A stretch of DNA of 64,000 nucleotides from Camelus ferus (taxonomy: Eukaryota). This document shows positions 5,640-47,580 of this stretch, piece after piece. A program made the translations under genes and the position numbers. The DNA is taken from NCBI RefSeq assembly GCF_009834535.1, contig NC_045696.1, positions 85,810,001 through 85,874,000 on the forward strand, in the 5' to 3' direction. Under the pieces are notes generated by a model. It was not told where the DNA came from. It saw only the letters and a list, made by a program, of their open reading frames with translations, and made no database searches. Positions within the stretch are counted from its first letter, which is position 1. The number at the start of each line of letters is the position of its first letter.

Positions 5640-5722
5640 GTAAGTCCTACCACTTATTTTTGTTCACAAAATAATTTTTCCTTGGTTTATGTGTTTTTAA
5701 TGACTATATCTTTAATTTCTAG

Positions 5723-6373: not shown

Positions 6374-6498
6374 GGCAAAGATATTGGTATCAGAGGAACA
6401 TTTCATACATTTGCAGCTCCTTTATATGAAATAAACCTACATGTCCGTGGTGGTCACATCCTACCATGTCAAGAGCCTGCTCAGAACACATTTTACAG
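6374..6498 (+). CDS. SI: SI exon 44 equivalent
   Basis: Acceptor ttccag, donor gtaagt. Translates [41 protein letters not shown](S). Confidence 0.97.
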
Positions 6499-7871: not shown

Positions 7872-7967
7872 TACAGTACTATTCGGTCCATGGTTGGTTG
7901 AATCTGCAGATGTGGAAAAACTGGATATTTGGATTAATACCCATGTTGTTCAAGGGTCAACTGTATA
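7872..7967. mobile_element. Tigger1-derived fragment
   Basis: ggttggttgaatctgcagatgtggaa...catgttgttcaagggtcaactg-TA terminus. A related decayed copy lies at about 51812-51995. Confidence 0.7.
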
Positions 7968-8886
7968 CACAGAGCAGAGTGAATGAAAGTTGTGAAACTC
8001 TTTTTAATCTCAGTTTACATATTTTGGAAAATTATGGGTTATACCAGGTTTTTAATGTTGCTAGTAAGATCTACTTATCTTTTACCTCAGTGACTATGAA
8101 TTAAAATACATAGATACCTGCATGCTAAGGCATGCTGACTTTTTTACATGGAAAATACAAAGCTGCTGTATAGATTGGAACTCTAGATATTTTGGATATT
8201 TTAGAAGACTTCCATAGCAGTACAGCCTTCAACATTTGTGATTGGAAAAGGGAACACAATGTGTCTGAGAAATCCTTTCTTAGCCATATGAGGCTGTCAA
8301 ACCCAATCACTTGTATCCTGAGCATGAAAGCAGATATTTAGTTCACAGGTAGGCCTGTTTGTAGGCACAGGCTTGGGAGGTGTTGTGCATTCCACAGATA
8401 GGACTTGCAACTATGTGGCTACTCCTCACATTCTTATTAACAGTTGCCAGTAATAATTCAGTGATTTATGCATGGAAATTTTCAGAAAGTTTAAGTTATA
8501 TGAGATTGAAATATGTCATTAAAATAGTTTTATGTTAAATGTTCAATGGCAAGGTTACCTGAGAGAAGAATGAATATATCAAATAACTTACTATGGTTTT
8601 CATTATAAATGAGACCACTTCTGATTTGTTGCAGTAGGTGAACCCTTGAGATCAAAGACATGCATGATATCTTCTATGAAATATGAAGGATTCTATGGTT
8701 TATATCTTTTTCAATTAACTCATTAAAAAAGGAAACTCCTTTAATTTTTTTTGTCTAAAACAGTTTATATTCTCTTTAACTGATATTCTTATTTGTGTTT
8801 CTTTGGACACATAGATGGATGTCATATCATAACAAGACATATGCTAACTCTAGAAACATTGGTAAAATTATATTTCTTTTTTATAG

Positions 8887-8975
8887 TCGACAAAATTACA
8901 TGAAGCTCATTGTTGCTGCAGATGATAATCAGATGGCACAAGGAACTCTGTTTTGGGATGATGGAGAGACTATAG
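8887..8975 (+). CDS. SI: SI exon 45 equivalent
   Basis: Acceptor ttatag, donor gtgagt. Translates [29 protein letters not shown](D). Confidence 0.97.
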
Positions 8976-11835: not shown

Positions 11836-11885
11836 ACACCTATGAAAGAAGCCTTTATTTCTTGGTACAATTTAATTTGAACAAG
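11836..11885 (+). CDS. SI: SI exon 46 equivalent
   Basis: Acceptor ttctag, donor gtgtgt. Translates (D)TYERSLYFLVQFNLNK. Confidence 0.95.
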
Positions 11886-12128
11886 GTGTGTATTCATTAC
11901 AGATCATTTATATGCAATTGTGTTAACTAATATTTGAAGTTTTATGCCATATTTTATATTTACTTTATATTTACATATTTTGTATATATTATATAACATA
12001 TAGCTTTTCAAATATATGAATAAACAATTTGCTATACTATGAATACATTTTGGTTAACATACATGCTTTTAAAATATTTAACTGCTTTTGCTAGATGAAG
12101 GGTTTAAATTATCTCTTTGTCTTTTTAG

Positions 12129-12296
12129 ACCACCTTGACAAGCAGTATACTGAAAAATGGTTACATAAACAAAAGTGAAATGAGACTTGGATATATCCAC
12201 ATATGGGGGAAAGAAAAGACTCGTGTTAGTGAGGTTAATCTCATATATAATGGAAATAAAGAGTCTCTTAACTTTATTGAAGACCCAAACCTGGAA
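12129..12296 (+). CDS. SI: SI exon 47 equivalent
   Basis: Acceptor ttttag, donor gtaagt. Translates [56 protein letters not shown]. Confidence 0.96.
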
Positions 12297-15086: not shown

Positions 15087-15155
15087 ATATTAGATATTGA
15101 TCTAAGAGTGAAGAATGTTACTCTAGATGACCCCATAGAAATCAACTGGTCATGA
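15087..15155 (+). CDS. SI: SI terminal coding exon (exon 48 equivalent)
   Basis: Poly-T tract plus AG acceptor. Translates ILDIDLRVKNVTLDDPIEINWS then TGA at 15153-15155, matching the recalled SI C-terminus PIEINWS. Confidence 0.96.
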   Translation: MLDIDLRVKNVTLDDPIEINWS

Positions 15156-30038: not shown

Positions 30039-30167
30039 GGTGTGCAGTTCACTGATATCAATTACATGAAAGACATGAAAGATCCCTTCTGATGAAGTTA
30101 AATTCAAAAGCCTTCTTGAACTGCTGAAGATTTGCACATCCATGGTCAAAAATACTTCAAAATTCTG
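30039..30167 (+). pseudogene. Decayed GH31 alpha-glucosidase exon (SI exon 11-like) of an SI-like paralog
   Basis: cag|GVQFTDINYMKDMKD..DEVKFKSLLE..AEDLHIHGQKYFKIL|gtaat versus recalled human SI [44 protein letters not shown]. Small frameshifting indels. Confidence 0.9.
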
Positions 30168-30252
30168 GTAATGGTTAAAGATACAGTGATTAAACGTCCT
30201 TATTTGAAAATATACTTGGTTTTTCTTATGCTTTTCCTTTTCTTTGGCTATG

Positions 30253-30372
30253 GATTCTGCTATTTTTATGAAAAAACACAGTAATGGAGAATCATATGAA
30301 CTCTGTGATAGAGGAACAGCACAAAAAGTGTGAACTATTGAGTCCTGTGGGTTTTACACCAATTACTGAAAA
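30253..30372 (+). pseudogene. Decayed SI exon 12-like exon
   Basis: DSAIFMKKHSNGESYELCDRGTAQKV*TIESCG..TPITE|gtaac versus recalled SI [40 protein letters not shown]. TGA at 30331-30333 replaces Trp; acceptor AG is lost. Confidence 0.88.
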
Positions 30373-32277
30373 GTAACTAGTAAAAAAATCTAGTTTTGAG
30401 CCAACTACTATGTTATTTAATTTGTTAGAGGAGGAGGTTGGATTGAAAGGATAAGACTTCCGTTTCACTTACTCCGATCATGTATTCAGAACCTGAGATC
30501 ACTCCACTTAACAGCTGCCAGGTGGAAAGTTATTGTCAAAATTACAATTAGTCTGTCCTGAATGTATTAGAAGAGAAGACAGAAAACATAATCATATTGA
30601 TAAGCATGTTGATAAGCAAAAGGTGAACATATTGTTAGAATAATTACAATCACTTTTCTGCTGATCCCTTGTTTTGGAAAGTTCTGTCCTCATTTTCTGC
30701 ACTATATTTTCTTCATGAACTTTCTCTTTCCATCTAGTCTTAGTGTCCACAGATCTCTATAGATGCTTTAGAAGTTATTTACAGAGGCTAATAATTTACC
30801 AGGTCAGTTGGTTCTTCATCTTGAGACATACCCCCCTTATTTTCTCACTGCTTCATGTCCCCTAAGGAACAGAAATTTCTTAACGGTAGAATATATTATT
30901 TTTCTGAAAGTTATTGTCTCTGAACTAACCTCAATTCTTCGTTTTCCCATCTCAGTTTCCTGTCTCAAAAGGAAACTTCTTAAACCTGCTTTAGGGTCTC
31001 AGTTTCCCCTCTTGGGTTGAAAACAACCAGAAGCTGCAGGCTTGGCCCTTTTCCTGCTTCTGAACAGTTTGGTAGAATATATACCGTCAGAGCTCTCAGG
31101 GCAGCTTGGCGGATAGTCAAAGGCACTTAACAATCTCCTGGCTACTAAAGGACAAGTGATGTATCAAAAATTCTGAGATTTATGTGGTGGCATGCTTTCT
31201 AGTTCCAAAAAATAATTAAGAAGTTTATCATGCTCCGGTGGACTATTTACTACCATTTGTCATAAAAACATCAGTTAAGGTTTGTGTGGGCCATTCTTGC
31301 CCGTGACTGGATGTGATTCCCACAAAACCCTGATAATAGCTACTATAGAAATCATTATTCTCATTGTATAAGCTGATAAAAGAAGTTCAGGGAATTTGCT
31401 CAAGTTTCTCATATTAAAATAGAAGTCATATATTTTTGTTAAGATTGTTATGAGAATATACATGATTTAATGTACATAAATGCACTGAGTTGAAAGCAGA
31501 GTTTTGAAACTTCGCAGGTGTCTAATAACTGCCAAAAACAGTATAATAAAAAGTAATATAATGTTAATAATTTTAAGGACTAGAATTCCCATTTTCTGAT
31601 TCATGATCAAAAGTAGCTTTTAATACTCTCGTTTAGTTGTTTCCCATAATTTAGTGCAATGTTTGGCACATTATAGAGACTCAAATGTTTTCCAAAGAAT
31701 AGGTGCTTCTGAAGCTTTATGTACAGAAGGGAATAACAGGTATTCCAGATAGCCAAATGTTACAGTGTTTACATTTTTCCTTTAAAAAATAAGTCATTTC
31801 AAAACTGCAGAGATAGTTATAAGGACAAGGAAAATTATACCAGATAATACTAGATAGTACTATAATTACATAATGTTGGAGTTAAGCTATGCATGCAGTT
31901 TATTTCCTCTTTAATAAGAGGTATAATTTTTGAAACTGTAATCAAAAGTTGTGTTGTTCAAAACTGTTTGTTCCATCTTTATGGTATGAACTTACCATTA
32001 TATGACTATTCTGACAAGTAAAGGAGAGTATTCTCAGTATACAAAATAAGTGTGCCGTATGTCTTTATATTGAGATTAGTTGATATTAATCTTATGATAT
32101 TTTAAATTTTAATTAGGAATCACACATTTTAGCATACATTAAGCTATGCTAAGCACTTTTATTATAAAATATTTAATAAACAGGGTTAACATCTTCAAAT
32201 TCTAAGCCTGAAAAAATACATTATTTATGTTTTTTTTTTCTTTTGGTTATAGATAGATGGCACAAGAGTTCATTTAG

Positions 32278-32425
32278 ATCTGGCCAGAATTTACTGTGAC
32301 CCTAACTTTACTAATCTGGCCAGAATTTACTGTGACCCTAACTTTACTAATCTGGCACTTTACAAATTATTGGGTAAATGAGTGTGAGCTTTTTCACCAG
32401 AAAGTGAATTTTGATGGTTTTAAAT
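32278..32425 (+). pseudogene. Decayed SI exon 13-like exon with an internal 36-bp tandem duplication
   Basis: tttag|IWPEFTV.PNFTNL..TNYWVNECELFHQKVNFDG..|gtaagt versus recalled SI [38 protein letters not shown]. Confidence 0.9.
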
Positions 32426-32927
32426 GTAAGTAATTATTTTACATTTCAGCAAGGAAAGAAAATGACAATGTAAATTACTAGTATTATTCAGACCTAATGA
32501 AATATCTTTTCCCTTCCCATTTACTAAGTATTTATTTTAGTAATTCTAATGATTTTCTGTTAGAAGTTCAGACGTAATTTCTATTCATACAAAGGGAGGG
32601 AGAAGGAGAAATTTCATTCTCTGTCTCTATTTACTCCTCTACCCCTTTTCCATTCATAGAATTAAGACATGAAAAATGTATCTTTTTCCCTCTGGAGCTT
32701 ACTAATTTTAAATATAGTATGAGCTCTTAATTGCCAATGGCATACATTTTTGAAGTAATAGCAAAAATTATATTAAAAGAACAATGTTCATTAGGACATA
32801 TGAGGATTGAAATCAGTAATTTTAGCTTCACGTGAGCTATGCAGCCCCTACTAAAATAAAACTTCTAATTCGAAGAAGTTCACAAGTTCTGAACTTGTGT
32901 TCGGTACCAGGCACTGGGTTAGGTAAC

Positions 32928-33142
32928 AGTAGTGGTCTGATCTGGGAGTGATTTTTGTCTTTCTCAGGGACTTTTAGCAATGTTTGAAGGCATTTTTGAT
33001 TGTCTCAAGTCGGGAGTGTTACTGGCATCAAGTGAGTTAAAAGCCAGGGATGCTCTTAAACATTTTATAACAGCACAGGACAGCCTCCCAGAACAAAGAA
33101 TCTCACCTAAAGTGTCAATAGTGCCAGTGTTGAAAAATTATG
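32928..33142. mobile_element. MER20-like hAT DNA transposon
   Basis: gcaatgtttgaaggcatttttgattgtc...actggcatc..gtgagt...gccagggatgct..taaacat...cacaggacagcc...aacaaagaat. Confidence 0.8.
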
Positions 33143-34753
33143 GGCCCCAGGGATGTTAAGATAAAGTAAACACATAGTTGTGTATTTAAAGCATTGTATC
33201 TACTTTGTGTTAAACTTTGCACAATATTAACTTATTGTCATATTTATCTAAGAAAAAGTTTCACTTGAAAATATATGGCTTCTTTAAAACGCATCAGTAG
33301 CCTCTGCTTGTTGGCAATGGGCAATGCGTTACATCCCTTTACCCATGATCTTGCTGGTACGAGATATATTTCAGTTGAATTCAAGTCTTATACAAGACTT
33401 TGCCAACATAAAGACCTTTCTTAGCAAGTGGGCTCAGTAACAATCTTCATCTTATTCTCTAAGCTCCAAAAAAACTAATTTTCTGTCCTAGAAGTGCTTC
33501 CACTAGCACATTATACAGAATGTATATTCTAGCAGAAATACTGGCAAACTCTCTCCTCATCTTTGATTACAGGGATTATCTGGATCCTAAACTTGGGATG
33601 CATTTCTAAAGGGTATAAGCTATTCGTTTCACTGGATGCTTTTATCTAGTACATACAAGGTGGAGGGCCTGAAAAAATTTTTCTAGCCATGTACAGATAT
33701 TGAATATCTCATCTAGCAATGAAAAAATATTTAAATATTCATAATGCTGGTTAATGAACTCTTTGACATTTAACAGAAATAAAGATAGTTGAAGACATTG
33801 GAGTAGCTTCATATAGAAAGTGGACACTTGATTAGAATCTTTCAAATACTACTTTATCACTCTAGGGTGAGTGTGTATTCCTGATCAGAGTTAAATATTG
33901 TGCACGTATTGAGGTATTTTAAAATAAATAAGAGGCAACCTTATATTCACTTATATCTCACATTCATTTTGCTAACACAAACATTGATTAAACACATGCC
34001 CAAGATTACATAGATAGTAAATTACTGATCAAAATTTGACAAAGGCTTGTTTAACTACAAAGTTCTTACTCTTATCTTCAAATGCAATAATGTTACATGT
34101 GCAAATAAACTAGTTTTAAACAATAGGAAGACATACTCTCCTTTTAAGTAATTGTTTTATCTTTTCATTTTTAAGCATATACCATATACATAAACACACA
34201 AATGATGTGTTCAGCTTGATTAACTTGTGTTTATGATTTTGATTAATGTATATCTCTGTGTAACCATGGAAATGTAATTTTTAAATAATAGAAACTATTT
34301 AATCACTCTTTCCTTTTGAAAAAATAGAATTCATGAGAATTATGTTGCAAGGACAAATGCCTGGCTCATGTAGTGGAAGGTTGTGGGTTGTATTGCACAG
34401 TGAAGATGTGGTCCATATCCTTGTTCCTTTGAGGGCTAAAACCTGAATTAATTTCTAGTGAAATGTGATCCTATAATAACTAACATTGATAAAAATGAAC
34501 AGTTAAATACAGAAGTCCTTTCATGAGTAATGTATGCTTACTTGACAGAAGTTTTCTTTGAATGAGGATAAAATTTGGATTATAGAATCTTATTTAAAGA
34601 AACTTAATTTGATTAGTTTTTAGTAACACTAGATGAAGAAGAGATTATCTCCACCCTCATGTTCATGGCTTCAAAGGTCCCTTCTGGGTTTACGTGCTTT
34701 GAGCTGAATTCTGATTTTACCTGATTTTGGCTTCCAAGAGGAGATCCTAAGTA

Positions 34754-34754
<1 letters not shown>

Positions 34755-34787
<33 letters not shown>

Positions 34788-34797
34788 AATAATAATA
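34755..34797 (+). repeat. (AAC)n(AAT)n microsatellite
   Basis: Compound trinucleotide run. Confidence 0.95.
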
Positions 34798-35914
34798 GTT
34801 GCTAGTATATATTGAGCACCTTCTAACTGCACTGAGGACAACTGGACCCTTAAGCAGATTACTGTTTTCTTCTTTTCATTTCATAAGGCTGAAAGATAGT
34901 AAGGCGATAGTTTTGCTTCTTTACATATCAAGAAACTGAAAGGTGTGAGTTAGAGCCTTGCCCTGCAAATATCAGAAATGTATTTGAGACAGAGAATTAG
35001 TTTATAAGCAGAAAGGAGGACAAAAATCCATCTAGAGCTCAGAAAAAAACCTGGAAAGCTAACACAATCTTCCCGTCATCTCTTTGCCTGTGACTGATGG
35101 AATTCATCTGTTGTGCTGACCTATGGTGAGGAAATAGGTTCCAACCAGAAGTTCTTTATTTACTGTAAGTCTGTGGCTTTGAAACCTAAATATAGAGGAC
35201 AGTTCAGGGATTCACCTGTGGTTCAAGCAGTCGCAATTAGGGTACCAGGTTTAGAGATTACACACATGGCTATATGTTCCATCCCTGTGTGGACAAGGTA
35301 CTACCCACCTGGTAGTAGGAGTGACCATAAAGATAATCTGAAAGGTTACCATTACATTGTCAGGAAAGCTTAATTTGCCATGAGTCCTGTATAAAAGATG
35401 CCCCCAGATCTGTCTGGAACCCTTACCCTTCCTACTATACATTACAGACTCACAATAGAAAAAGTAGTATGTATCAATTGATTTCTTTCTTTATTTTTTT
35501 TACTAATTTGTTGAGTTCTTTTACAGCTAAATTCTCAAGTATAAGAATTCTTTGTGTTTTGTGTACATACTATTGTATTTAAAATACTGAATATAATACA
35601 GAAATCCCTTGCTTTGGCCTTACTAGAGAAATATGTAAAGCCATACACAAACAAATCTGACTTTTAACCAAGATGTTTTATTAAACATTGGATAATTCCT
35701 CAAAATAAAACCTAATATCTCACTTCATTATTTCCTTCTAGAAGTCTCATGAAAGGTTAATGAATTGCAAATCCAAATTGTAATATATATTTGTCTTATC
35801 CCTACAGTGGCCTGGTAATGTGATAATAATGCTTTTAAACATAAGGGAACTGAAATTATCTAAATAATGTCTAGCAACCCCTCCCACGCTCAATTTTTTT
35901 CCTTTGCATTTCTG

Positions 35915-36606
35915 TTTATTTTGTATTGTGCTAAAAAAAAACACCTAACATGTGATGTACCTGCTTAACAAAATTTTAAGTGGACAGTACAGTATTGCTA
36001 GTTATATGCACATTGTTGTACAGTAGATCTCTACAACTTATTCATTTTGCATGACTGAAATTTTATACTCATTGAATAGCAACTCCTGATTTCTGAGTCC
36101 CTTCAGCCACTGACAACCACCATTCCACTTCCTGTTTCTACGAGTTTGACCACTTTAGATGCCTTGTGTAAGTGGAATCATTGCAGTATTTGTCTGTCTG
36201 TGACTGACTTATTTCACTTAACAGATAGTCTTCATGGCTCACCCATGTTGCAGCATATGGCAAGATTTCCTTCTTTTTTTAAGGCTGAATTATATTCCAT
36301 TGTATGTATGTACCATATTTGTTTTATCCATTCAGCCATCCAGAGACATTTAGCTTGTTTCCACTTCTTGGCTGTTGTGAAAAATGCTGCAATGAATATG
36401 AGAGTGCAAATACCTTTTTTGAGTTCCTATTTTGAACTCTTTTGGATAAACACATAGAAGTGGGATTGCTGGATCAAATGATACTTCTATTTTTAGTTTT
36501 TTCAGGAACATACATACTAACAGTGCCTGTATCTTTTTCCCTTCCCACCAACGTTCTACAGAATGTTGAGGTTCCAATTTCTGCACATCCTTGCCAGCAA
36601 TTGTTA

Positions 36607-36637
<31 letters not shown>

Positions 36638-36655
36638 GTATATATTTTTTTTTCT
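35915..36655 (-). mobile_element. Older L1 (L1MA/L1MB-like) 3' fragment
   Basis: Antisense L1 hallmarks: aaggctgaattatattccattgtatgtatgtaccatattt and gggattgctggatca. Minus-strand ORF FLKKLKIEVSFDPAIPLL. Confidence 0.9.
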
Positions 36656-39600
36656 GTGTATAGGAGAGCTCTTCAAATTTTCACCCAAGTTCTTTCAATC
36701 TTAGGTTAGACATATCTTACAAGCTCTGTTCTTACACTGTTTCATCCCTACCTTTCTATGTGCTCTTGTGGCTCAGGTAAAACTGGTGGAACCTAACACC
36801 TTATTCATTTAATATGTTTTTCTTTATTACTCTTAGTCCAGTTTAATAAAACATTTTTAAAATAAAAGATGAAAAAATTATAACAGCAAAGCAGCCAAGA
36901 CTACTTCATATCAATATTAATTTATTAGATTTAATAGTGCTTATATTTCAATTATCTACTGTTTATGCCAATGTCTGAAAATTGACAATATGCCATTAAA
37001 AGTTATAAAACTATGTTCTGCATCCTTAGTGAAAGAAGAGAAATATTTAATACATTTCACACATTTTAAAAAAATGTTTAAAATAATACAATTATTTAGA
37101 CTTAAATAAATTGGAAATGAGTAGCATGATTGATGCTTTCAAGAATGATAGCTAATTGACTGCTGCTCTCCCTTGGTAACCAAGTATAGGATGGAGAATT
37201 TGTTTTCTTTTTGAAAGACAGTTTTCCTCAAAGCAAGTAAGATGTCTGAATTTAAATAAAGATATCTTAGAGAGAAGTATGCTTTTTCGGGAGATTTAGA
37301 TAACCCATAGCCACAATCAAGAGAGAGAATAATAATGAACTGCATAAGTGTATGGTAATCCAAGTAATATAAACTCTTAAAATATCAGTGAGTTATTATT
37401 TAACCATGCATATTTATCTATAGTTATGCATTGTTCTGATGTCAACAGTGAGCTAAATGTCATTACAGTATTCCCCAAACTGGTGTGTTGGGAAATAATA
37501 AAACAAAATCCAAACAAAACAAATCAACACATCTTACACACACACACACACACAATCATACTGCTATGTTATAATAAAATAGCGTTTTATGTTCCAACAT
37601 GTAAAGGAAATACTGATACAGAGAATTGAAGAAGTAACTTTACAGAGGGACTTCTCAGGTGCTGTAATTTAACGTGCTACTATGACAGTATGCACTGAGA
37701 ATCTCCAAGAAGTAGGCACTCTGTATATCTTCACAAGCATGCATATTCAGGAAAAACTTTTTCAGGTCACTTCTGTGAACCTCTCTCAGAACAGAACTGC
37801 TAATTTAAATCAATGCATTAGTTATATGTGGCTTTAGGAGTCAACATACATTTAAGATGTATGAATGAATATTCTATAGAGTAACATCCAGTAATAGTGA
37901 GGGTAAATTGAGTCCATACAGCTATATGATAATTCACATTGCTTTTTAGCCAATAAGAATCTTGAAAGAGATTGGACTGTGGTACACACACTATTTTATC
38001 TTATTTTTTCTCACTTAAAATACTGGAGAGTCTTTACAGGTTGTTAATACACTGGTTCCATTAAAGAACTTCAGTTTTCAGTTTGCTATTATTATTTTAG
38101 TAGCCTGCCTGAAAATTCATAGGGAGTATTATAATATATTGTTAAGGATGTAACCTTGAGTTTATGATGGCTCAATCCTTACCAAAAGCTGTACTGAAAA
38201 AAAATACTTTTTAGGGAGTACAACTTGAAGAAAATGCAAATGTCCTTTTTGAGATTTGTGAAAGATGACCCTTGGATACAACCCAGATGATCAGAGAGTG
38301 CTGCTTAGGTCACATGCAGTTCAAATTTGCTGAACTCTGCCTTAGCATAATGTTACAAAAAATGACCCTTTGATGTTCTCTGTTGTATTTTCTGCGGAGC
38401 TATCATTAAAAAACAATTTATAGCGTAGCACACTATTTCATGAAGATTCTTGCAAGCAAAATGTGTTTTTGCCGATTCACTACTTGTTTTTAACTTATGC
38501 GTGTAGAACAATTTAACCACTAATATGTCCTACTTTGTGATGGTTAGTTGCAAATCCCAAAGACTTGCTATCTTCCTTTAGCAATTTTTATAAGTTGCTT
38601 ATAAATGACATGCAATTTGAATTTTAATGCTGCCTGCTCTTATTTTGTTCCTTGATCTGATTTTTCACAGGTATGTTTTTACCTTCTGGTATGATTTTAT
38701 AAGCTATTTCAAATCCTTTTTCATATTGAAGCAAGGTAGAAATTATTACATAGTGAAAGACATAGGTAAATGAATAAAGTTGGTTCTTTTGTTCATATAA
38801 GGCTAACTGTTGGGGGAGAGTCCACATTTTGGCTCTTGAGGACTAAGACCATTGGTTTCTGAATGTGGCTTTTGGGAACAGAGGTTTGTGGATGAGGTAT
38901 GTAGTTATGAGATTTGTGTTGCAATGAATGTTTGCCCATTTGTTTAAATTCTCCTGTCAACCTCTTCAGTTTGGTTCATGTATCTATTTAACATGACCCC
39001 AGTAATCTTCATCACATTCTTTGGTTTTAGGGATTAAACAAGCAAACGAACATGCTATGGTTCACTCTACATTTCCTATTCCGAACCTGGAATTTTGCAT
39101 TTAAATAGGATAGTTCCCTTATAAGAAATGATATTTATAGTCCGCCATCAAAATAATAGGATGCTTGTTCCTCATTCCTTGATTTGGTCACTGTTTCCAT
39201 ACCTATTGTAATGAGCAGAGCTGGAAAAATATGTGTAATATAAAAGAGGAAGTGTATTTGGAATTATATTGATATTGCTAGTTTTAATTTAGAATTGTGT
39301 TTTTTCTTACCTTCTTTAATATAGCTTGTTTTTTTTTCATAACACTAAAAATCTTAGCTCCTATGCACTAATGTAACTATTTGGTATGCTTATTTTAGAA
39401 TAAAGGTATTAATATTATCTCTAACAGTATTACAAAAAGCTGTTTAAGGTTGTTTTTCCTTTTTTCCCCAGTTATTTTTATCCACAAATTACTGTGCTTT
39501 GAGGTCACTTAAAATATTTTCTTTCAGCATGATGGAGCTACCAACTTAGGTTTAATGGTCATATTTTGCTCATGGTTTTTAGAGGTTGCTTTTTTTTTCT

Positions 39601-39858
39601 ACTTTTATTTAATTTTTGCTTGATATTTATGCAGAACTTTTACATGCCTCCAATGTCGAATTTACAAAGCAGAGTATATTCAGAGATGTGGAGTTTTTAT
39701 TTTCTAATTCTCATTTCTGTTCTCCACATAACCATTTTATTCACTTACACTTATTACATATTTAAGCAAATACAGATAATTTAAAATTTTGTTTCTAAAA
39801 TACTTGTTGCCTCAAATATGTTTTAATCATCTGCATACTTAAATTTCTTTTACTATAA

Positions 39859-39940
39859 CATCAGAATCTCATGGGACTCACAATTGCTCTTAGTGATAAT
39901 TCAGCAAAAGGAGACTTCTTGAATGATGGAGAGTCTAAAG
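39859..39940 (+). pseudogene. Decayed SI exon 22-like exon
   Basis: HQNLMGLTIALSDNSAKGDFLNDGESK(D)|gtag versus recalled SI [29 protein letters not shown]. Also aligns to this window's own SI exon at 8887-8975, with the same phase-1 donor. Confidence 0.88.
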
Positions 39941-40063
39941 GTAGACATATTATATATAACATATCCCTGGATGAGTGAGACAAGTTGTTAAATGGTCAAA
40001 CAGTCTAATAAAACTAGTAGCTAAGCATAATCATTTTGCTTTGATCTAAAATTAAGGGTGACT

Positions 40064-40396
40064 CATCTACAAAACAGAAACAGACTTGCAGGCATAGTAA
40101 ACAATCTTATTATTACCAGGGGAAAGGGGGTGGGAAGAGTAAATTTAGGAGTTTGAGATTTGCAAATATTAACTGCTATATATAAAAATAAACAAAAACC
40201 GAATTTCTTCTGTATAGCACAGGGAACTACAGTCAATATCTTGTAATAACCTTTAATGAAAAAATATGAAAATGAATATATGTATGTGTATGCGTATATA
40301 TATATATATATATATATATATGCATGACTGGGACATGCTGTACAACAGAAATTGACACATTGTAATTGGCTATATTTCAATAAAAATAAATAAATG
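40064..40396 (+). mobile_element. 5'-truncated L1 3'UTR insertion with 15-bp TSD
   Basis: ctgtatagcacagggaactac...aattgacacattgtaa...A-rich tail. TSD aaattaagggtgact at 40049-40063 and 40397-40411. Confidence 0.9.
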
Positions 40397-40630
40397 AAAT
40401 TAAGGGTGACTAAAATATAACTAAAATTGATTTTCATTTGTGATTTCTAAGAGTCTAGAAAGAATGTCATGATAGGCAAATATTACTGAAAAATCATATT
40501 TTTACATACATACAGTTATAAAAAGAGGAAAAAATAGAAGTAGAGACTAAGAAAGAGAATTTACACTGTGTACACACAAAAACACAAAGATGAAAGAGAG
40601 AGAGAGAGAGATAAAAGATTAGAAAGTAGG

Positions 40631-42795
40631 ATTCAACATAGTATTGGAAGTCCTAGCCACAGCAATCAGACAAAAAAAAAGTATCCAAATTGGAAGGGAA
40701 GAGGTTAAGTTGTCATTATATGTAGATATCATGATACTATACGTAGAAAAACCTAAAGACTACTCACAAAAACTGCTAAAACGGACAAACTCAGCAAAGT
40801 AACGGGATACAAGAGTAACATACAGAAATCTGTTGCATTTCTTTACACTAACAATGAAATATCAGAAATGAAAAGTAAAAAAAAAATCTGTTTTAAAATT
40901 ACATAAAAAAAAATACTTAGTAATAAACCTGAACAAGGAGGTGAAAGAGTTGTATGCTGAGAACTATAAAACATTGATAAAGGAAACTGAAGATGATTCA
41001 AATAAATGGAATGATATCCCATGCCCTTGGATTGGAAGAATTAATATTGTTAAAATGGCCATACTACCCAAAGCAATCTACAGTTTAATGTGATCCCTGT
41101 GAAATTACCCAGGATGTTTTCACAGGACTGGAACAAATAATCCTAAAATTTATATGGAATTACAAAAGACCCAGAATTGCCAAAGAAATGCTGAAGAAAA
41201 AGAATGAAGCTGGAGGAATAACCCTCCCAGACTTCAGATAATACTACAGAGCTACAGTAATCAAAACAGTGTGATATTGGCACAAAGACAGACATACAGA
41301 TTAATGGAACAAAATAGAGAACCCAGAAATAAACCCACAGACTTACAGTCAGTTAATCTTTGACAAAGGAGGCGAGAATATACAATGCAAAAAAGACAGT
41401 CCCTTCAAGATACAATGGAGAAAAGAGTGTCTCTTCAGCAAGTGGTGTTGGATAGCTGCCTGGAAATCAGTGAAGTTAGCATACTCCCTCACACCATACA
41501 CAAAAATAAACTCAAAATGGTTTAAAGACTTAAATATAAGGTAAGACACTATAAACCTCCTAGAAGAAAACATAGACAAGACATTTTCTCACAGAAATCT
41601 TAGCAATGTTCTCCTAGGGTGGTCTACCAAGGCTATAGAAATAAAAGCAAAAATAAACAATTGGGACCTAATTAAACTTCTAAGCTTTTGCACAGCAAAG
41701 GAAAATATAAGAAAAACAAAATGGCAACTTACAGAATGGGAGAAAATATTTGCAAATGATGTGACTGACAAAGGTTTAATTTACAGAATATATAAACAGC
41801 CCATACAACTTAATAACAACAACAAAAACAAGAAAACCCAATCTAAAAATCGGCAGAAGACCTAAAAAAGCAATTCTCCAGTGAAAACATACAAATGGCC
41901 AATAGGCACATTAAAAAATGCTCAACATAGCTAATTATCAGAGAAATGCAAATCAGAATGAGGTATCACCTCACACCAGTCAGAATGGCCATCATTAAAA
42001 ATTCCACAAATGATAAATGCTGGAGAAGGGGTGGAGAAAAGGGAACCCTCCTATACTCTTGGTGGGAATGTAGTTTGGTGCAGCCATTATGGAAAACAGT
42101 ATGGAGATTCCTCAAAAAACTAAAATAGATTTACCGTATGATCCAGCAATGCCACTCCTGGGCATATATCCAGGGGAACTCTAATTTGAAAAGATACGTG
42201 CACCCCAAAGTTCATAGCAGCACTATATACAATAGCCAAGACATGAAAACAACCTAAGTATCCATTGACAGAGGACTGGATAAAGAAGTTGTGGTATATT
42301 TATACAATGGAATACTACTTGGCCATAAAAAAGAATAAAATAATGCCATTTGCAGTAACATGGATGGACCTGGAGATCATCAGTCTAAATGAAGTAAGCC
42401 AGAAACAGAAAGAAAAATACCATATGATATCACTCATATATGGAATCTAAAAAGGAAAAAGAAGACAGTAATGAAATTATCTACAAAACAGAAACAGTCA
42501 CAGACATAGTAAAAAAAAAAAAATATGGTTACCTGGGGGAAAGAGTGTGTGAAGGCATAAATTGGGAGCTTGAGATTTGCAACTATTAACTACTATACAT
42601 AAAATAGATTAAAAAAAAAACAGATTTCTTCTGTATAGTAGAGGGGAACTATATTCAATATCTTGTAATAACCTATAATGAAAAAGAATATGAAAAGGAA
42701 TATATGTAGGTATATGATGACTGAAACAGTGGCTGTTCACTAGAAATTGACACATTGTAACTGACTGTACTTCAATTAAAAAAAAAAAGAAAGAA
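40631..42795 (+). mobile_element. 5'-truncated LINE-1 (ORF2 RT/C-terminal region, 3'UTR and poly-A), disrupted
   Basis: Begins attcaacatagtattggaagtcctagcc. ORF2 peptides include [44 protein letters not shown] and WIKKLWYIYTMEYYLAIKKN. Same 3'UTR family as 40064-40396. Confidence 0.96.
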
Positions 42796-43249
42796 AACCA
42801 TGAGAAAAAAAACCAAACATATGCTTTGTAAGTTCCTGCAACATTATTGAATGCAGACTAAATATTTGTTCCTGATATTCTTTTTTTAATTCATTGAAGT
42901 ATAGTTAATTTACAAAATTATATCAGGTGTACAACAGTGATTCAATATTTTTATAGAGCATGAATCATACAAAATTATTAAAAATTATGAAAGGGAAATG
43001 TATGATTAGATGTAAGATTCAGTGTCATTATCTTAAAAATTAATATTAATTGTTCATGAGAAGCAAAGCTTTTCCTAGCCCTGAGAACATGATCTCTCAT
43101 AAAAGGGACGTTGAAAGATGTGGAAGATAATATATTTGGCAGCATCACTACAAATGACACCATAGTGAGTAGCACTTGAGTGAAGTTTGGAGTAAAAGTT
43201 GGAAGCATTGGGCTATTGTGATATCCACCAAAGAAATGTGTTGAGAGTG

Positions 43250-43395
43250 GTTCATAAAAGTTCTCATCACAAGAAGTATGTGTGGTAGTAGACATTAACT
43301 AGACTTATTGTGGTGATCATTTCCAATATATACATATATTGAATCATTATGCTGTAAACCTGAAACTAATATAATGTTATATGTCAATAAAAAAA
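43250..43395 (+). mobile_element. L1 3' terminal fragment
   Basis: ttctcatcacaagaa...ttattgtggtgatcatttc...tgaaactaatataatgttatatgtcaataaaaaa. Confidence 0.8.
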
Positions 43396-43439
43396 TAAAA
43401 GAGAGAGAAAGAAGAAATTTGGGCAAAGAAACACCAAGG

Positions 43440-43602
43440 ATGAACATTTATTAAAAAAAAGACCAGGTGAAGACATACCTGGAAGTGGCTATCTGCAAGC
43501 CAAGGAGAGCGGCCTCAGGAGAAACCAAACCCACCAACGCCTTGATCTTGGACATCTAGCCTCCAGAATGGTGAGAAAATAAATTTCTGTTGATTAAGCC
43601 AA
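43440..43602 (+). mobile_element. MaLR LTR (MLT1-type) fragment
   Basis: ctgcaagccaaggagag..cctcaggagaaacca..ccttgatcttggac..ctagcctccagaa.gtgagaaaataaatttctgttg.ttaagcc. Confidence 0.85.
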
Positions 43603-44629
43603 AAAAAGAAAAAAAAAAGAGAAAAAAAAGAGAAATGTACTGTTCTCAAAGAGAAATATTTTGAAGGAGAAAAAGATTTATTCATATTTTAATGTTATAA
43701 AAACTTCTCAATATTATATAGCCACAGATATTTTGTTATGTTTATAGAATGAATGTATTTTACATAATTTGATATTACTGTGCCCACTAAAGAATCCTTA
43801 AGAACCTAGAAGAACTGAAACTATATAGAAATATTCCAATATTATATTCCTATTTTACAAATGAGGAATCTAAGTTTCAGAGATAAGGGTTTTAGTAAAA
43901 ATAACAAATTATAAATGTTAAAATCAGGAGAAACCATAAATTCTTACTCTTTTTTTTGTTGTACCATGCCATCTCTGTCACGTATGCACCAAAATTTGAC
44001 TCTTATTTAAGATAGTAATAAGTGATATAATAGTTTCTATTATTTCTGTGCATTATCAATATAAATGAGAACTAAAAGAATCCATTATTATATTTTCAAA
44101 GTTAGTAAAATAATTTTACGGACATTGTCTCATTTGACACTCAGAGCAACTTTGAGATATAGTATTGTTGACTCCATTTGTTAGTTTAGAAACAGAAAAT
44201 CAGAGAATCTGTGGTTTCTCCAAACTCATAACTATTAAACGATAGGAGGGGATTCATATTCTAAGATTTTTGAGTCCAAATTTAGCATTTTTTTTACTAA
44301 TATATAATTTTCAGTACCATAACAGCTTAATCTATTGGTTGAGGCATTTATTCAATAAACATTTATTGAACACAAGTTTATACTAATTATTATGTGAGAG
44401 ATAGAAAAACACATAGTTGTAATAAGATTTAATTTCTGCTCAGTAAAAATTCACAGTATATACAGCAAATAAAATGACACTAGTCATTTTCATGACCAAA
44501 GTTAGTTTTCCAAATGTTCTAATAACTAGTTCATTTGCTGTTAATAAACTTTTTTGTATCATGAGTGATATCAAATGGTAACTCACCAAAATTTGCCTGA
44601 GCTAGCACTACTCTAGAATAATGTACATT

Positions 44630-45171
44630 TGTTACCCAAAAGGGAAAAGGAAAAGACCCCAATTCTTGTCTTAACCAAAAGATAAGATTTACAGATGGGA
44701 GATGGAAAGCGTTGTGTGGCAAAAAGATTCTAAAAGATTTATTTAGGAAAAGAAGAGTACGCCTCCAAGAATGGGAGGCGGGCTGAATCAAGGGGGAATT
44801 GCGGTGTTCTTTGTCTCCTTTCTCTTACACCGTGGCTTAGAGGTGGTCTTTTGATTGACTGATGATTCTTGTCCCTGGAATGCTTATTCATGTTTAATCC
44901 CTTTGCACATGTCCTTTCCCAAGGTATTCATAGAAAAACCCAAGGTGGGGGGCTAATTGCAATGTTAATTATAATACAATGAACATTGGGTTGTGTCCAG
45001 TTAAGTCCTTTCTGCTACCTACAGTCGTGGCTGTTGGGTCTTAACCGGTGGTATTCACTGGTACTCATTTAGAAGAAGTAAAGTCCCTTTATGCTGGAGG
45101 TGGGCATAACGCCATTTTCTCTTCTCCTTCACCTGTCTGCCCGGTGCCCCCACTTATCTAACTACCTAACA
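44630..45171 (-). mobile_element. ERV1-class solo LTR
   Basis: TG...CA termini (tgttac...cctaaca) with 4-bp TSD CATT at 44626-44629 and 45172-45175. Confidence 0.85.
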
Positions 45172-46364
45172 CATTTAACACATTTGCTTTACTTAAGATA
45201 CATGAGTGTATGGTTATCACTAAACACAATAGGTGACACTGTGAGAACTGTTAGTAGTTATAATACTAATGAGAATTGTTAATGGTTATTATGATAAAGG
45301 TAAAAAAATAGTAATTTTTATGTATGCTGTTACAATGAAAAATTCACTTGGTAAACAATGTATGCTGAATGGAAATTCTTCACAGTGATGTTATTTCCTC
45401 TTTTTAAACAATCCTATGACAATTTAAGAGGTCAAGTAAGGATCACTGTGAAATGAGTTGAAAGGATTACTGGCATCATTCATCATTTTTATATTGTATT
45501 ACTATAGTGCAAGACTTTTTTGAACTTTAATGAATGCTACACTTGTCTTTGAAATTTACAGTGATTTCCCAGTCATGATGTATACAGTCTGATTCAGAAT
45601 TTCTTTTTCAGTAGAATATAAAGCACATTTAAATGAATGCTAGGAAAAGTCATCACCTGCATAAGATATGAGAGATTCTTTTTTTTTCCTTCATATTTCA
45701 TTTAGTCCTCACCTTCATTTACCATGCTTTGACCTCTTTCCTTTTTTTTCCCCATAATTAAATGCCTCTGTAGTATAATGGTTCTAGGTGCCCCTTTTGG
45801 AATCACTCAGTTACAATTTGGGATCTGATTCAAACTAGTTATGTGACTATGGGTAAGATGCAACACTTCTATGATTCACTTTCTTTTTCTGTAAAATGAT
45901 GACTAAAAAAGAAAAGCCTCAACTAATTACTACAAAAAACTCATTTAGTATATGTAGTAAATATGCCCCAAGTTGTATCTCTAACCTTTATCGTCCACAT
46001 TATATTAAGAATTAAATTGAGGGATGTAAAGTTATTTTAAGGAGGATTAAACAGTAAAACTATTGTGTGTTTAAATATATAGTTATTGCTGTAGAGGGGA
46101 GAGAGAGCAAACAGCATCCTCCTCACATGTAATAGTGTTGTGTCTTCAGAAGAAAAGGAAAATATAAGAACTCTTGAGTTTATTAAGAGTAAGAGTAAGA
46201 ATGTACCTTTAGTTTTGGACAAACCTATCTACTTAGTAAACATTTCCTGGCTTGTTTCAGTTAACTTACCTCTTTAAGAAATGCATATCTTATTAACAAA
46301 AATTAAGATTATTTTTCTAGAAATGCTCTAGCTTTACTATGGAGTAACTTTTGTTGTGTTTCAG

Positions 46365-46415
46365 ATAATGTAGAAAAATGCAGCTACATTTTCTATGGGT
46401 TTTTAAATCTCTAAT
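46365..46415 (+). pseudogene. Decayed SI exon 23-like exon
   Basis: tttcag|(D)NVEKCSYIFYGF..ISN|gtaag, 51 nt versus the 50-nt paralogous exon at 11836-11885. Recalled SI counterpart is DTIQNGNYILYTFSVSN. Confidence 0.75.
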
Positions 46416-47410
46416 GTAAGAATTTTCTTTGGATAAAAGTGTTTCCTGTGGGTCTTTACAATGAAAAGTTTTATACTTCATGCTATATATGCCTTGCTTT
46501 TGAAGATATGATTGCTAGGAACAGTGGTCATCTGCATAAGATATGAGAGATTCCTCATATCTCCTTTAAAGGTTCATATAAAATAAATATTTAGATAAGT
46601 TTCCTATGCCTGAGTCAAAATCAGTAAATGTACAGTTTCACTATCATTTTATTAATAATAGACTTCATTTATTTCTTAAATTAATGTGTATTTTTAGCTT
46701 AATAGAAGAGGGTGAGCTCTTGGAAAATTCAGCTATGATAGGCAAAGATTAATAAAGGAGGGGAAAAAAGTCCTATAATGAGTTATTAACCTAAAATAAC
46801 TTATAAAAATAAATTATTATAAATAAAAATAAATTATAAAATTTAATTTTACACATATACTTAAGTTCTCAGTGCATGTTTTAGACTAGCAACTAGCTGT
46901 CCTTTTATCCTCACTGAGGCAGAGGAAAAGAAAATGAGTATGGACTGCTTTAGGTTAGCTCTCAAGGAAATTGGATAGGTTAAGAGTGGAGATGTAGCTT
47001 GACTAAAATATTTATAAGAATACTGTTGATTCTGTGTCGCAGTGATAATTTTCTCCCATGAAGGGGAATAATTGAATTGCTCATTGCTTTTATAAACTGT
47101 TTTTATCTTGATGAAAATGTGAATATTTGAAGCATCATAAAACAAATACTTCCAGTAACTTAAATTTATGATTTCTTTAAAGAAATTAATGCATCTATGA
47201 CTGTTACATCATTTCTTACCATTATGACTCCTCACAGGAAGTTGTAAAAAGAAGGTGCATACTCGGTTACTCTCTTCTTTGAGGGGTATGTGTTTAAGCA
47301 TATTTAAGAATGTGAAGAATGTGGCAGCAACATTTCCTCAAGGATATTTCTGCCTTTATTTTAGATTCTCAATAGATAACCTAATATCTAATGTTTAATT
47401 TTTTTTTCAG

Positions 47411-47580
47411 AATCACATAGCATTGACTTGTACACAGTCACAATATCTACAGGAAAAAAATTTGAATTTTTCTGATATTAAAGTTCTTGGAAAAGAGACC
47501 AGACCTATATCAAATACAGCGAAAGAAACAATCAAGAAACCACACCTGCTTTCTCTTTTAATTTTAATGATGTGAATAAG
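47411..47580 (+). pseudogene. Decayed SI exon 24-like exon
   Basis: Strong acceptor (T)n-cag and donor AAG|gtgagt. NHIALTCTQSQYLQEKNLNFSDIKVLGKETRPISNTAKE/NQETTPAFSFNFNDVNK with a 1-nt frameshift, versus recalled SI [57 protein letters not shown]. Length 170 nt versus the expected 171. Confidence 0.85.

What the first reader, a model, noticed from the sequence alone, without database searches (positions are those of the whole stretch)
30039..47580. Hidden fossil of a second intestinal GH31 alpha-glucosidase gene in tandem downstream of SI
Seen in the sequence: six exon-sized segments (30039-30167, 30253-30372, 32278-32425, 39859-39940, 46365-46415, 47411-47580), all on the + strand, mostly with AG/GT edges. 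Each translates to SI/MGAM-like peptide, and they fall in the order, approximate size and splice phase of SI exons 11, 12, 13, 22, 23 and 24. The last three also parallel this window's own SI exons of 89, 50 and 168 nt. None appears in the ORF track. From recalled knowledge: they fit the N-terminal (isomaltase-type) half better than the sucrase half. Inference: because introns are retained this is a genomic tandem duplicate rather than a retrocopy, and identity to SI of roughly 30-55% by eye points to an old paralog that later died. I know of no annotated glucosidase at this position in placental mammals. It could be the lost ortholog of an SI-adjacent paralog still intact in other vertebrates (extra SI-derived glucosidases have been reported in birds).
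Basis: partly seen in the sequence, partly recalled or inferred. Interest (0 to 1): 0.92.

Follow-up and report, generated by a model that had tools for sequence, protein, structure and literature searches.

The report
Dead tandem copy of isomaltase exons
Just downstream of the sugar-digesting gene SI lie six decayed exons of an old second copy of its isomaltase half: a real but dead pseudogene that records an early duplication of this gene in mammals.

Summary
All six segments are decayed, colinear, same-strand homologues of SI coding exons 10-12 and 21-23 (exons 11-13 and 22-24 if SI has a non-coding first exon, which I recall but did not check). They start about 15 kb past SI's last coding exon.

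- **Not chance:** five segments score 8.6-18.1 bits on an SI N-unit HMM; the best reversed-sequence control scores 2.5. The sixth (51 nt) and three others match own SI DNA (E 5e-29, 4e-10, 4e-10).
- **Structure:** exon sizes (129/120/112/82/51/170 vs 132/120/114/89/50/171 nt) and the short intron 11 (85 vs 89 nt) are kept, so this is a genomic duplicate, not a retrocopy.
- **Dead:** seven in-frame stops, frameshifts, a 36-bp tandem duplication and two lost acceptor sites. No trace of exons 1-10, 14-21 (catalytic) or 25 onward.
- **Type:** isomaltase-like and SI-like rather than MGAM-like. Amino-acid identity is 43% to SI-N, 33-37% to MGAM-N and 27-31% to C units. UFBoot is 93 with therian SI-N.
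- **Unresolved:** AU tests reject no alternative branch point. Whether it was ever a working gene is open. No other mammal genome or annotation could be examined, so an intact orthologue and novelty are untested.

It is an ordinary kind of object: an ancient duplicated pseudogene.

The parts
200..15149 (+). 3' part of the intact parent gene SI (sucrase-unit exons, aa ~1410-1826); the whole gene spans window coordinates -67031 to 15149
   Evidence: tblastn with SI proteins; own-genome search
30039..30167 (+). Relic exon e11 (129 nt vs 132 in SI). AG acceptor and a GTAATG donor, as in SI. Four in-frame stops (30090, 30093, 30099, 30117) and a one-codon deletion.
   Evidence: (15.3 bits). Its only PDB hit is 3lpo_A sucrase-isomaltase, E 0.0032.
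30168..30252 (+). Relic intron 11 (85 nt vs 89 in SI). Similarity to the SI intron is confined to the ends next to the splice sites.
   Evidence: alignment; the whole intron is 52/82 identical and 16 of 2000 shuffles reach its score; for the core, 1566 of 2000 shuffles do.
30253..30372 (+). Relic exon e12 (120 nt, same as SI). The acceptor AG is now TG. Two in-frame TGA stops (30331, 30367).
   Evidence: (11.6 bits). No PDB or Pfam hit on its own.
32278..32425 (+). Relic exon e13. It carries a perfect 36-bp tandem duplication (32278-32349, 2.2 copies to 32356). Without it the exon is 112 nt vs 114 in SI, and a 2-nt loss near the 3' end shifts the frame just before the place where SI encodes its WIDMNE motif.
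   Evidence: 18.1 bits; 70.6%, E 4e-10; best PDB hit 3lpo_A, E 0.0076
39859..39940 (+). Relic exon e22 (82 nt vs 89 in SI). The acceptor AG is now AA. Two one-codon deletions.
   Evidence: E down to 4e-4; 9.6 bits. PDB hits are weak: MGAM E 0.17, SI E 0.41.
46365..46415 (+). Relic exon e23 (51 nt vs 50 in SI: a +1 frameshift). There is a TAA at 46412. Both flanks resemble the SI flanks.
   Evidence: blastn 46349-46433 vs the own SI exon plus flanks, 75.3%, E 4e-10; alignment. Weak alone by tblastn (E 4.6).
47411..47580 (+). Relic exon e24 (170 nt vs 171 in SI). AG/GT edges are kept. An internal frameshift falls near 47510; the second half reads in another frame.
   Evidence: 8.6 bits; 99/166 nt identical end to end

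Best explanation
The interval holds the remains of an ancient tandem duplicate of the N-terminal (isomaltase-type) unit of SI. It lies on the same strand, 15-32 kb beyond SI's last coding exon.

Shown:
- Six exons survive with SI's exon sizes, boundaries and order.
- They carry seven in-frame stops, at least three frame-breaking length changes, a 36-bp tandem duplication and two ruined acceptor sites.
- The exons that encode the catalytic motifs (14-21) are undetectable, as are exons 1-10 and 25 onward.
- It therefore cannot make an enzyme.

Inferred:
- It arose by unequal crossing-over or segmental duplication of SI, or of part of it.
- This happened after the SI and MGAM lineages separated, most likely on the mammalian stem before or near the marsupial-placental split.
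- It has drifted neutrally for most or all of its history. The relic-specific change of about 0.26 per first or second codon position gives about 0.3 substitutions per site by my own Jukes-Cantor arithmetic. With recalled mammalian neutral rates, that puts its death at or before the placental radiation.
- The missing middle exons were probably removed by deletion or replaced by repeat insertions rather than decayed in place, because the neighbouring, less conserved exons are still recognisable.
For: Homology above chance:
- SI N-unit HMM scores of 8.6-18.1 bits for five colinear + strand segments, against 2.5 bits for the best reversed-sequence control.
- blastn to own SI-N exons at E 5e-29, 4e-10 and 4e-10.
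- tblastn E down to 5e-7.
- Two of four exons searched against PDB hit the SI N-terminal structure 3lpo_A best or only.

Genomic duplicate:
- Exon lengths match within 0-7 nt, and donor and acceptor positions align with SI's.
- Intron 11 is 85 vs 89 nt.

N-type:
- The C-unit HMM scores 1.6 bits or less.
- Mean identity is 43% to 22 mammalian SI-N units against 29% to their C units.

SI-type rather than MGAM-type:
- Mean identity to MGAM-N is 33-37%.
- IQ-TREE puts the relic with 11 therian SI-N units at UFBoot 93.
- At sites where the majority residues differ, the relic follows therian SI 18 times and MGAM 5 times (p 0.011). It follows non-mammal SI-type 14 times and MGAM 3 times (p 0.013).
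- In this genome's own DNA, SI = relic ≠ MGAM at 101 sites, against MGAM = relic ≠ SI at 54 (p 2e-4).

Old:
- 68.7% nucleotide identity.
- The intron core is no better than shuffles.
- The relic follows eutherian and marsupial SI equally, 7:7.
- It is unique in the genome.

Dead:
- Stops are listed; frameshifts and lost AG sites appear.
- No other GH31 signal rises above control level between 15.2 and 184 kb.
Against: - The branch point is not resolved. AU tests do not reject placement with eutherians (p 0.31-0.37), with marsupials (0.36-0.41), outside all living SI-type units (0.24-0.30), with MGAM-N (0.07-0.10) or with MGAM2-N (0.089, ΔlnL 19.3).
- Therian SI-N excludes the relic at UFBoot of only 79.
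- The therian vs non-mammal SI-type contrast is 7:8. The contrast with MGAM2 is 14:8 and not significant.
- Generic Pfam GH31 models do not detect the relic. e12 has no PDB hit, and e22's best PDB hit is MGAM.
- The phylogeny rests on only 191 alignment columns.
- No monotreme SI N-unit was in the sample.
- Dating uses recalled neutral rates.
Confidence: 0.85

Rival explanations
1. Unitary pseudogene of a once complete, working tandem paralogue ('SI2'). Under this reading it was expressed and under selection for a long time in early mammals, then was lost before the placental radiation. It may still be intact in some other lineage.
For: - 10 of 12 splice dinucleotides are kept. About 6.6 would be expected at the relic's own per-site change of about 0.26. 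By my hand arithmetic P is about 0.04.
- Where SI-N and MGAM-N agree, relic-only changes are 25% and 27% at codon positions 1 and 2 but 49% at position 3 (Fisher p 7e-5).
- Relic vs SI identity is 68.8/66.1/51.9% by codon position.
- The ML tree puts it outside therian SI-N, which would leave time for a working phase.
- The distance from the SI 3' end to e11 (14.9 kb) is close to the span of SI exons 1-10 (about 14.5 kb).
- Passages of PMC6451114 say MGAM2 arose by tandem duplication in primitive mammals, so such events are known in this family.
Against: - The third-position excess is confounded by saturation between SI and MGAM.
- Retention of conserved residues is not significantly higher at ultra-conserved sites: 29/39 against 24/43 (p 0.11).
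- Stops make up 3 of 29 changed residues at well-conserved sites. That is at or above the roughly 5.5% neutral expectation I recall, so nothing signals a long selected phase.
- No exons 1-10, 14-21 or 25 onward, and no second unit, are detectable.
- No closer intact protein was found (weak evidence).
Confidence: 0.4
2. Dead-on-arrival partial segmental duplication. Under this reading a piece of the SI N-half was copied downstream without a promoter or without all its exons, and it never worked.
For: - Only N-half exons are found, and only six of them.
- The relic-specific divergence and stop density fit neutral drift along the whole branch (my arithmetic).
- AU tests allow a later origin, on the eutherian stem.
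Against: - Splice sites are kept slightly better than neutral expectation, and third positions look faster. Both signals are weak or confounded.
- The surviving exons span both ends of the (beta/alpha)8 region, with the expected order and spacing on either side of a gap. This fits a copy that was once contiguous and was later deleted internally.
Confidence: 0.4
3. It is the SI-locus counterpart of MGAM2. Under this reading an ancestral tandem pair existed before the SI and MGAM loci separated. The second member survives as MGAM2 at one locus and died at the other.
For: - Same layout: a tandem paralogue immediately downstream on the same strand. MGAM and MGAM2 lie on contig C7 at about 18.00-18.12 Mb.
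- The AU test does not reject relic + MGAM2 at 5% (p 0.089), and the site contrast is 14:8, not significant.
Against: - ΔlnL is 19.3 against the ML tree.
- Identity to MGAM2-N is 34%, against 43% to SI-N.
- The relic groups with therian SI-N at UFBoot 93.
- The passages of PMC6451114 read date MGAM2's origin to a tandem duplication within mammals.
Confidence: 0.05
4. Chance similarity, a recent duplicate of this lineage's SI, or an assembly artefact.
For: Single exons are weak on generic models.
Against: - Five colinear hits lie 6-16 bits above the best control.
- DNA matches reach E 5e-29.
- Nucleotide identity to own SI is only 68.7%, and the copy carries many disabling changes.
- It is a unique locus in the genome.
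Confidence: 0.02

Closest known systems
SI (sucrase-isomaltase), N-terminal isomaltase unit; PDB 3LPO/3LPP
   Same: - It is the best or only solved-structure hit for relic exons e11 and e13.
- Exon sizes, boundaries, order and the short intron 11 are the same.
- It has the highest identity of any group: mean 43% amino acid and 68.7% nucleotide to the own copy.
   Different: - The relic has seven stops, frameshifts and lost acceptor sites.
- It has no detectable exons for the catalytic motifs and no C-terminal unit.
- It is a separate locus 15 kb downstream of the intact gene.
MGAM2, the tandem paralogue downstream of MGAM
   Same: It is a product of tandem duplication of a two-unit GH31 gene in early mammals, lying next to its parent. 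This is stated in passages of PMC6451114, citing Naumov 2007, which I did not see. The same passages report that MGAM2 has lost catalytic residues in placentals.
   Different: - MGAM2 is still an open, expressed gene; the relic is a fragmentary pseudogene.
- The relic is SI-type, with 34% identity to MGAM2-N against 43% to SI-N.
Lineage-specific SI duplicates reported in songbirds (recalled: Brun et al. 2020, Mol Biol Evol; paper not held)
   Same: An extra SI-derived alpha-glucosidase gene made by duplication of SI.
   Different: - As recalled, the bird copies are intact and functional and arose within birds.
- In my trees the bird N-units sampled form one clade far from the relic.
- No orthology is indicated.
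Duplicated (non-processed) pseudogenes in general
   Same: It has retained intron positions, an adjacent parent gene and multiple disabling mutations.
   Different: It is unusually old and fragmentary: only 6 of about 24 N-unit exons remain recognisable.

Membership tests
Glycoside hydrolase family 31 (as a working enzyme) | Catalytic nucleophile Asp in the WIDMNE motif. The motif name is recalled and also quoted in PMC6451114. In SI it begins at the exon 13/14 junction. | tested here: not met
   Relic e13 ends in a frameshifted sequence where own SI reads ...DGLWI. No exon-14 homologue lies between 32.4 and 39.9 kb or anywhere in 15.2-184 kb.
Glycoside hydrolase family 31 (as a working enzyme) | Acid/base region (WLGDN motif) and the rest of the (beta/alpha)8 barrel, exons 15-21 | tested here: not met
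   No hit above control level with either the N-unit or the C-unit HMM.
Glycoside hydrolase family 31 (as a working enzyme) | Open reading frame | tested here: not met
   Seven in-frame stops, length changes of +1, -2 and -1 nt in e23, e13 and e24, and a 36-bp duplication.
GH31 by descent (homology to the family) | Significant sequence similarity to GH31 catalytic-domain sequence | tested here: met
   Met with SI-specific tools. Not met with generic Pfam models: 0 of 5 relic exons hit any GH31 family at E<=10, and the relic is not listed in the PF01055 genome scan.
SI/MGAM N-terminal-unit type | N-unit rather than C-unit sequence and gene structure (short intron 11; single exon 12 without the C-unit insert) | tested here: met
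   - N-unit HMM 8.6-18.1 bits against 1.6 bits or less for the C-unit HMM.
- Identity 43% vs 29%.
- Intron 11 is 85 nt, against 89 nt in SI-N and about 700 nt in SI-C.
SI lineage (as opposed to MGAM/MGAM2) | Groups with SI-type N units in phylogeny and at diagnostic sites | tested here: inconclusive
   - Favoured: UFBoot 93 with therian SI-N, site contrasts of 18:5 and 14:3, and own-genome DNA counts of 101:54.
- Not excluded at 5% by the AU test: MGAM-N p 0.07-0.10, MGAM2-N p 0.089.
Duplicated (non-processed) pseudogene | Introns retained at parental positions; disabling mutations; parent gene identifiable | tested here: met
Processed pseudogene (retrocopy) | Exons joined without introns | tested here: not met
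   The six exons are spread over 17.5 kb, with introns at SI positions.
Unitary pseudogene (loss of a once working gene with no remaining functional copy of that gene) | Evidence of past selective constraint, or an intact orthologue in another lineage | tested here: inconclusive
   - Splice-site retention and the codon-position asymmetry are weak or confounded.
- Retention at conserved sites is not significant.
- No intact orthologue was found.
- Other genomes cannot be read with these tools.

The most novel reading that the evidence does not exclude
Early mammals had a third intestinal alpha-glucosidase gene, a tandem 'SI2' next to SI that mirrors the MGAM-MGAM2 pair. Under this reading it worked for tens of millions of years and was lost before the placental radiation, so this relic is shared by placentals as a unitary pseudogene. 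An intact orthologue may survive in monotremes, marsupials or some other tetrapod lineage.
Probability: 0.3. Interest if true: 0.6.

Novelty: new member of a known kind. Interest (0 to 1): 0.4.

Why it matters
SI and MGAM carry out the last step of starch and sucrose digestion, and their duplication history is used to explain dietary adaptation. A dated relic of a further SI duplicate would add one event to that history and give a second locus with the 'parent plus downstream tandem copy' layout seen at MGAM/MGAM2. Shared disabling lesions in the relic could also mark when the copy was lost.

In practical terms, such relics can mislead gene predictors that extend SI models downstream. They can also mislead copy-number counts of GH31 genes. 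Beyond that it is a non-functional pseudogene of an ordinary kind.

Tried and rejected
- **More relic exons.** tblastn with 249 proteins and N-unit and C-unit HMM scans of 15.2-184 kb on both strands found nothing else above control level.
  - 25257-25367 is exon-19-like: 4.0 bits on the C-unit HMM against 2.9 for the control, tblastn E 0.01-0.3, no Pfam hit. It also lies out of order.
  - 26270-26392 has E of 4.5 or worse.
  - 29221-29364 (E 1-10) lies in a GC-rich retrocopy block and would span an exon junction.
  - 41155-41214 is exon-10-like (E 0.2-0.6) but out of order.
  - 58793-58960 on the - strand scores 5.1 bits but is low-complexity.
  - I treat all five as chance.
- **Intron homology.** Only the ends next to splice sites resemble SI.
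- **Intact orthologue.** A read-through query of e12, with X at the stops, shared no three 5-residue words with any of 5.8 billion clustered proteins of 71-2000 aa. This is weak evidence.
- **Monotreme SI N-unit.** The two platypus proteins retrieved contain no complete N-type SI unit.
- **Expression.**
  - The run index lists two RNA-seq runs holding 33-39% of the sampled words of 29.9-32.5 kb, and two runs guessed to be RNA holding 34%.
- **IQ-TREE on 83 taxa, and four constrained searches in one call.** Both timed out. I reran with 39 taxa and with -fast.
- **Literature.**
  - Five full-text searches returned no paper that appears to describe an SI-adjacent GH31 pseudogene. I judged this from listings and abstracts.
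  - I read passages of PMC13651202 and PMC6451114.
  - Brun et al. 2020 and Nichols et al. 2003 are not held, and I did not see Naumov 2007, so prior description there cannot be excluded.

Full report
**Setting**

The window is G000:C1:85810001-85874000 (+) of a 2.09-Gb mammalian assembly. SI is complete on the + strand, from window coordinate -67031 to 15149. The window holds its last sucrase-unit exons. MGAM and MGAM2 lie on another contig, C7, at about 18.00-18.12 Mb.

Yes.

- *tblastn.* Six SI proteins, and then 249 GH31 proteins, gave colinear + strand hits for e11, e12, e13, e22 and e24. These hits map to SI residues 385-501 and 811-882.
- *HMM scan.* I built an HMM from 40 mammalian SI N-units and scanned all six frames of 15.2-184 kb.
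  - The five segments were the five top hits, at 18.1, 15.3, 11.6, 9.6 and 8.6 bits, in model order.
  - The best hit in the reversed-sequence control scored 2.5 bits, and the next real hit 5.1 bits.
- *DNA level.* blastn of 15.3-64 kb against this genome's own SI gene gave four matches.
  - 30035-30373 matches exon 11 + intron 11 + exon 12 (65.4% of 347 nt, E 5e-29).
  - e13 matches at 70.6% (E 4e-10).
  - e23 with both flanks matches at 75.3% (E 4e-10).
  - e22 matches only weakly (E 0.43).
  - This rescues the 51-nt e23, which is weak by protein search (E 4.6).
- *Sizes and edges.* Relic vs own SI exon lengths are 129/132, 120/120, 112/114 (after removing a 36-bp duplication), 82/89, 51/50 and 170/171 nt. 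In total 449 of 654 aligned bases are identical. Splice-site positions align with SI's. Six of six donors are GT and four of six acceptors are AG.
- *Exon numbering.* By my count of SI coding exons these are coding exons 10-12 and 21-23.
- *Against.* Pfam's generic models find none of five relic exons. The PF01055 genome scan did not list them. Searched alone against PDB, e12 finds nothing and e22 only weak hits.

**2. What is it?**

*A genomic copy, not a retrocopy.* Introns sit at SI positions. Intron 11 is 85 nt against 89 nt in SI, and intron 12 is about 1.9 kb against about 1.7 kb.

*It is dead.*
- There are stops at 30090, 30093, 30099, 30117, 30331, 30367 and 46412.
- One-codon deletions occur in e11 and e22.
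- e13 has lost 2 nt just before the place where SI begins its WIDMNE motif.
- e23 has gained 1 nt, and e24 has an internal frameshift.
- A perfect 36-bp tandem duplication lies in e13.
- The acceptors of e12 and e22 now read TG and AA.
- Nothing corresponding to exons 1-10, 14-21 or 25 onward, or to a C-terminal unit, rises above control level in 169 kb downstream of SI.

*It is N-unit (isomaltase) type.*
- The C-unit HMM gives 1.6 bits or less on the same segments.
- Mean amino-acid identity over up to 185 columns is as follows:

| Compared group | Mean identity |
|---|---|
| 22 mammalian SI N-units | 43% |
| Sauropsid and amphibian N-units | 38-42% |
| MGAM-N | 33-37% |
| MGAM2-N | 34% |
| C-type units | 27-31% |

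- The only PDB hit of e11, and the best hit of e13, is 3lpo_A, the N-terminal SI structure.

*It is unique in the genome* at the sensitivity.

**3. Where does it branch, and how old is it?**

*Trees.* FastTree on 83 sequences and IQ-TREE on 39 (LG+G4, 191 columns) both place the relic as sister to therian SI N-units.
- Relic + therian SI-N has UFBoot 93.
- Therian SI-N without the relic has UFBoot 79.
- The wider SI-type clade, with sauropsids and amphibians, has UFBoot 77.

*AU tests.* The data are thin, and AU tests reject none of the alternatives at 5%:

| Constrained placement | p-AU |
|---|---|
| With eutherians | 0.31-0.37 |
| With marsupials | 0.36-0.41 |
| Outside all living SI-type units | 0.24-0.30 |
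| With MGAM-N | 0.07-0.10 |
| With MGAM2-N (ΔlnL 19.3) | 0.089 |

*Site counts.* Simple counts of which group's majority residue the relic follows agree with the trees:

| Contrast | Relic follows first : second | p |
|---|---|---|
| Therian SI vs MGAM | 18 : 5 | 0.011 |
| Non-mammal SI-type vs MGAM | 14 : 3 | 0.013 |
| Eutherian vs marsupial SI | 7 : 7 | not significant |
| Therian vs non-mammal SI-type | 7 : 8 | not significant |
| Therian SI vs MGAM2 | 14 : 8 | not significant |

In this genome's own DNA, SI-N and the relic agree against MGAM-N at 101 sites. MGAM-N and the relic agree against SI-N at 54 sites (p 2e-4).

So the relic is an SI-type copy made after the SI and MGAM lineages parted. 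It shows no sign of belonging inside either eutherian or marsupial SI.

*Age.* The intron-11 interior no longer aligns better than shuffled sequence (1566 of 2000 shuffles reach the score). Relic-only change where SI-N and MGAM-N agree is 25-27% at codon positions 1 and 2, which is about 0.3 substitutions per site by my Jukes-Cantor arithmetic. With neutral rates that I recall for mammals, this is of the order of the whole placental era or more. The copy was therefore already drifting at or before the placental radiation.

**4. Was it ever a working gene?**

This is unresolved.

*For a working phase:*
- Splice dinucleotides are kept at 10 of 12 positions, where about 6.6 are expected (hand arithmetic, P about 0.04).
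- Third codon positions carry more relic-only change (49%) than first and second positions (Fisher p 7e-5). Identity to SI is 68.8/66.1/51.9% by position.

*Against it, or not decisive:*
- The third-position signal is confounded, because SI and MGAM are near saturation there.
- Retention of residues at ultra-conserved sites (29/39) is not significantly above that at less conserved sites (24/43; p 0.11).
- Stops are as frequent among changed residues as neutral drift would give (3 of 29; the expectation is recalled).

I therefore give about equal weight to a once-working 'SI2' and to a partial copy that never worked.

The recognisable exons flank a 7.4-kb gap, and SI's eight most conserved exons would fall in that gap. 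This suggests later deletion rather than decay. A GC-rich retrocopy block immediately upstream of e11 and interspersed repeats between e22 and e23 show that the locus has been reworked.

**5. Comparison with what is known**

The closest sequence is the isomaltase unit of SI. The closest analogue in layout is MGAM2. Passages of PMC6451114, citing Naumov 2007 (not seen), say that MGAM2 arose by tandem duplication next to MGAM in primitive mammals. They add that in placentals it has lost catalytic residues while remaining a gene.

The relic fails every test of a working GH31 enzyme but meets those of a duplicated, non-processed pseudogene.

An origin as the SI-side twin of MGAM2 is disfavoured, though the AU test does not formally exclude it.

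The third unit seen in the roughly 2700-aa squamate, tortoise (Gopherus) and amphibian 'SI' proteins is C-type. The N-type relic is therefore not a lost third unit of that kind.

**6. Novelty and limits**

- Five full-text searches returned no paper that appears to describe an SI-adjacent GH31 pseudogene. I judged this from listings and abstracts, plus passages of two papers.
- Key papers (Naumov 2007; Brun et al. 2020; Nichols et al. 2003) were not available.
- No genome annotation and no other mammalian genome could be consulted.
- The read-through search with e12 found no closer protein (weak evidence).
- Expression could not be examined.
- Ancestral reconstruction was not available.

**Verdict**

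This is a real, ancient, dead tandem copy of SI's isomaltase half. It is a new member of a known kind and of moderate interest.

Noticed in passing
window 28550-29980: A GC-rich block (55-77% GC in a 33% GC region) lies directly upstream of relic e11. Bases 1-112 and 117-527 of the block match two places 4.4 kb apart on contig C6 (88% and 75% identity) without the intervening sequence, as a processed retrocopy would. Bases 1081-1321 match contig C18 (74%). One - strand ORF gives a sub-threshold Pfam DUF4528 hit (E 0.004).
   Followed up: partly
window 32278-32356: A perfect (100%) 36-bp tandem duplication, 2.2 copies, lies inside dead exon e13, bounded by a 7-nt direct repeat. Given its zero divergence it is a recent slippage event.
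   Followed up: yes
window 42098-42795, 40044-40292, 35969-36608: Interspersed-repeat copies that match SI introns at 69-80% identity (for example -16426..-15736 and -12477..-11840), some at several places. They fill much of the relic's introns. I did not classify them.
   Followed up: no
window 25257-25367: A short + strand stretch resembles the conserved GH31 '...YTLLPY.YT...' exon (exon 19 or 44 type). tblastn E is 0.01-0.3 across 83 proteins, and the C-unit HMM gives 4.0 bits against 2.9 for the control. It lies out of order upstream of e11 and is not significant, but it could be a further scrap of a relic.
   Followed up: partly
window 29900-32500: The run index lists two RNA-seq runs (X15, X18) holding 33-39% of the sampled words of this stretch, and two runs guessed to be RNA (X16, X17) holding 34%.
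   Followed up: no
proteins P0278-P0293 and others (not in the window): Squamate, tortoise (Gopherus) and amphibian proteins named sucrase-isomaltase are about 2700 aa long, with three GH31 units (N-C-C). The mammalian SI proteins retrieved have two units. Several mammalian MGAM models have three or four.
   Followed up: partly
window 2688-2884: A tetranucleotide-type microsatellite in an SI intron reads as a long 'SIYLSIYL...' ORF on the - strand.
   Followed up: no
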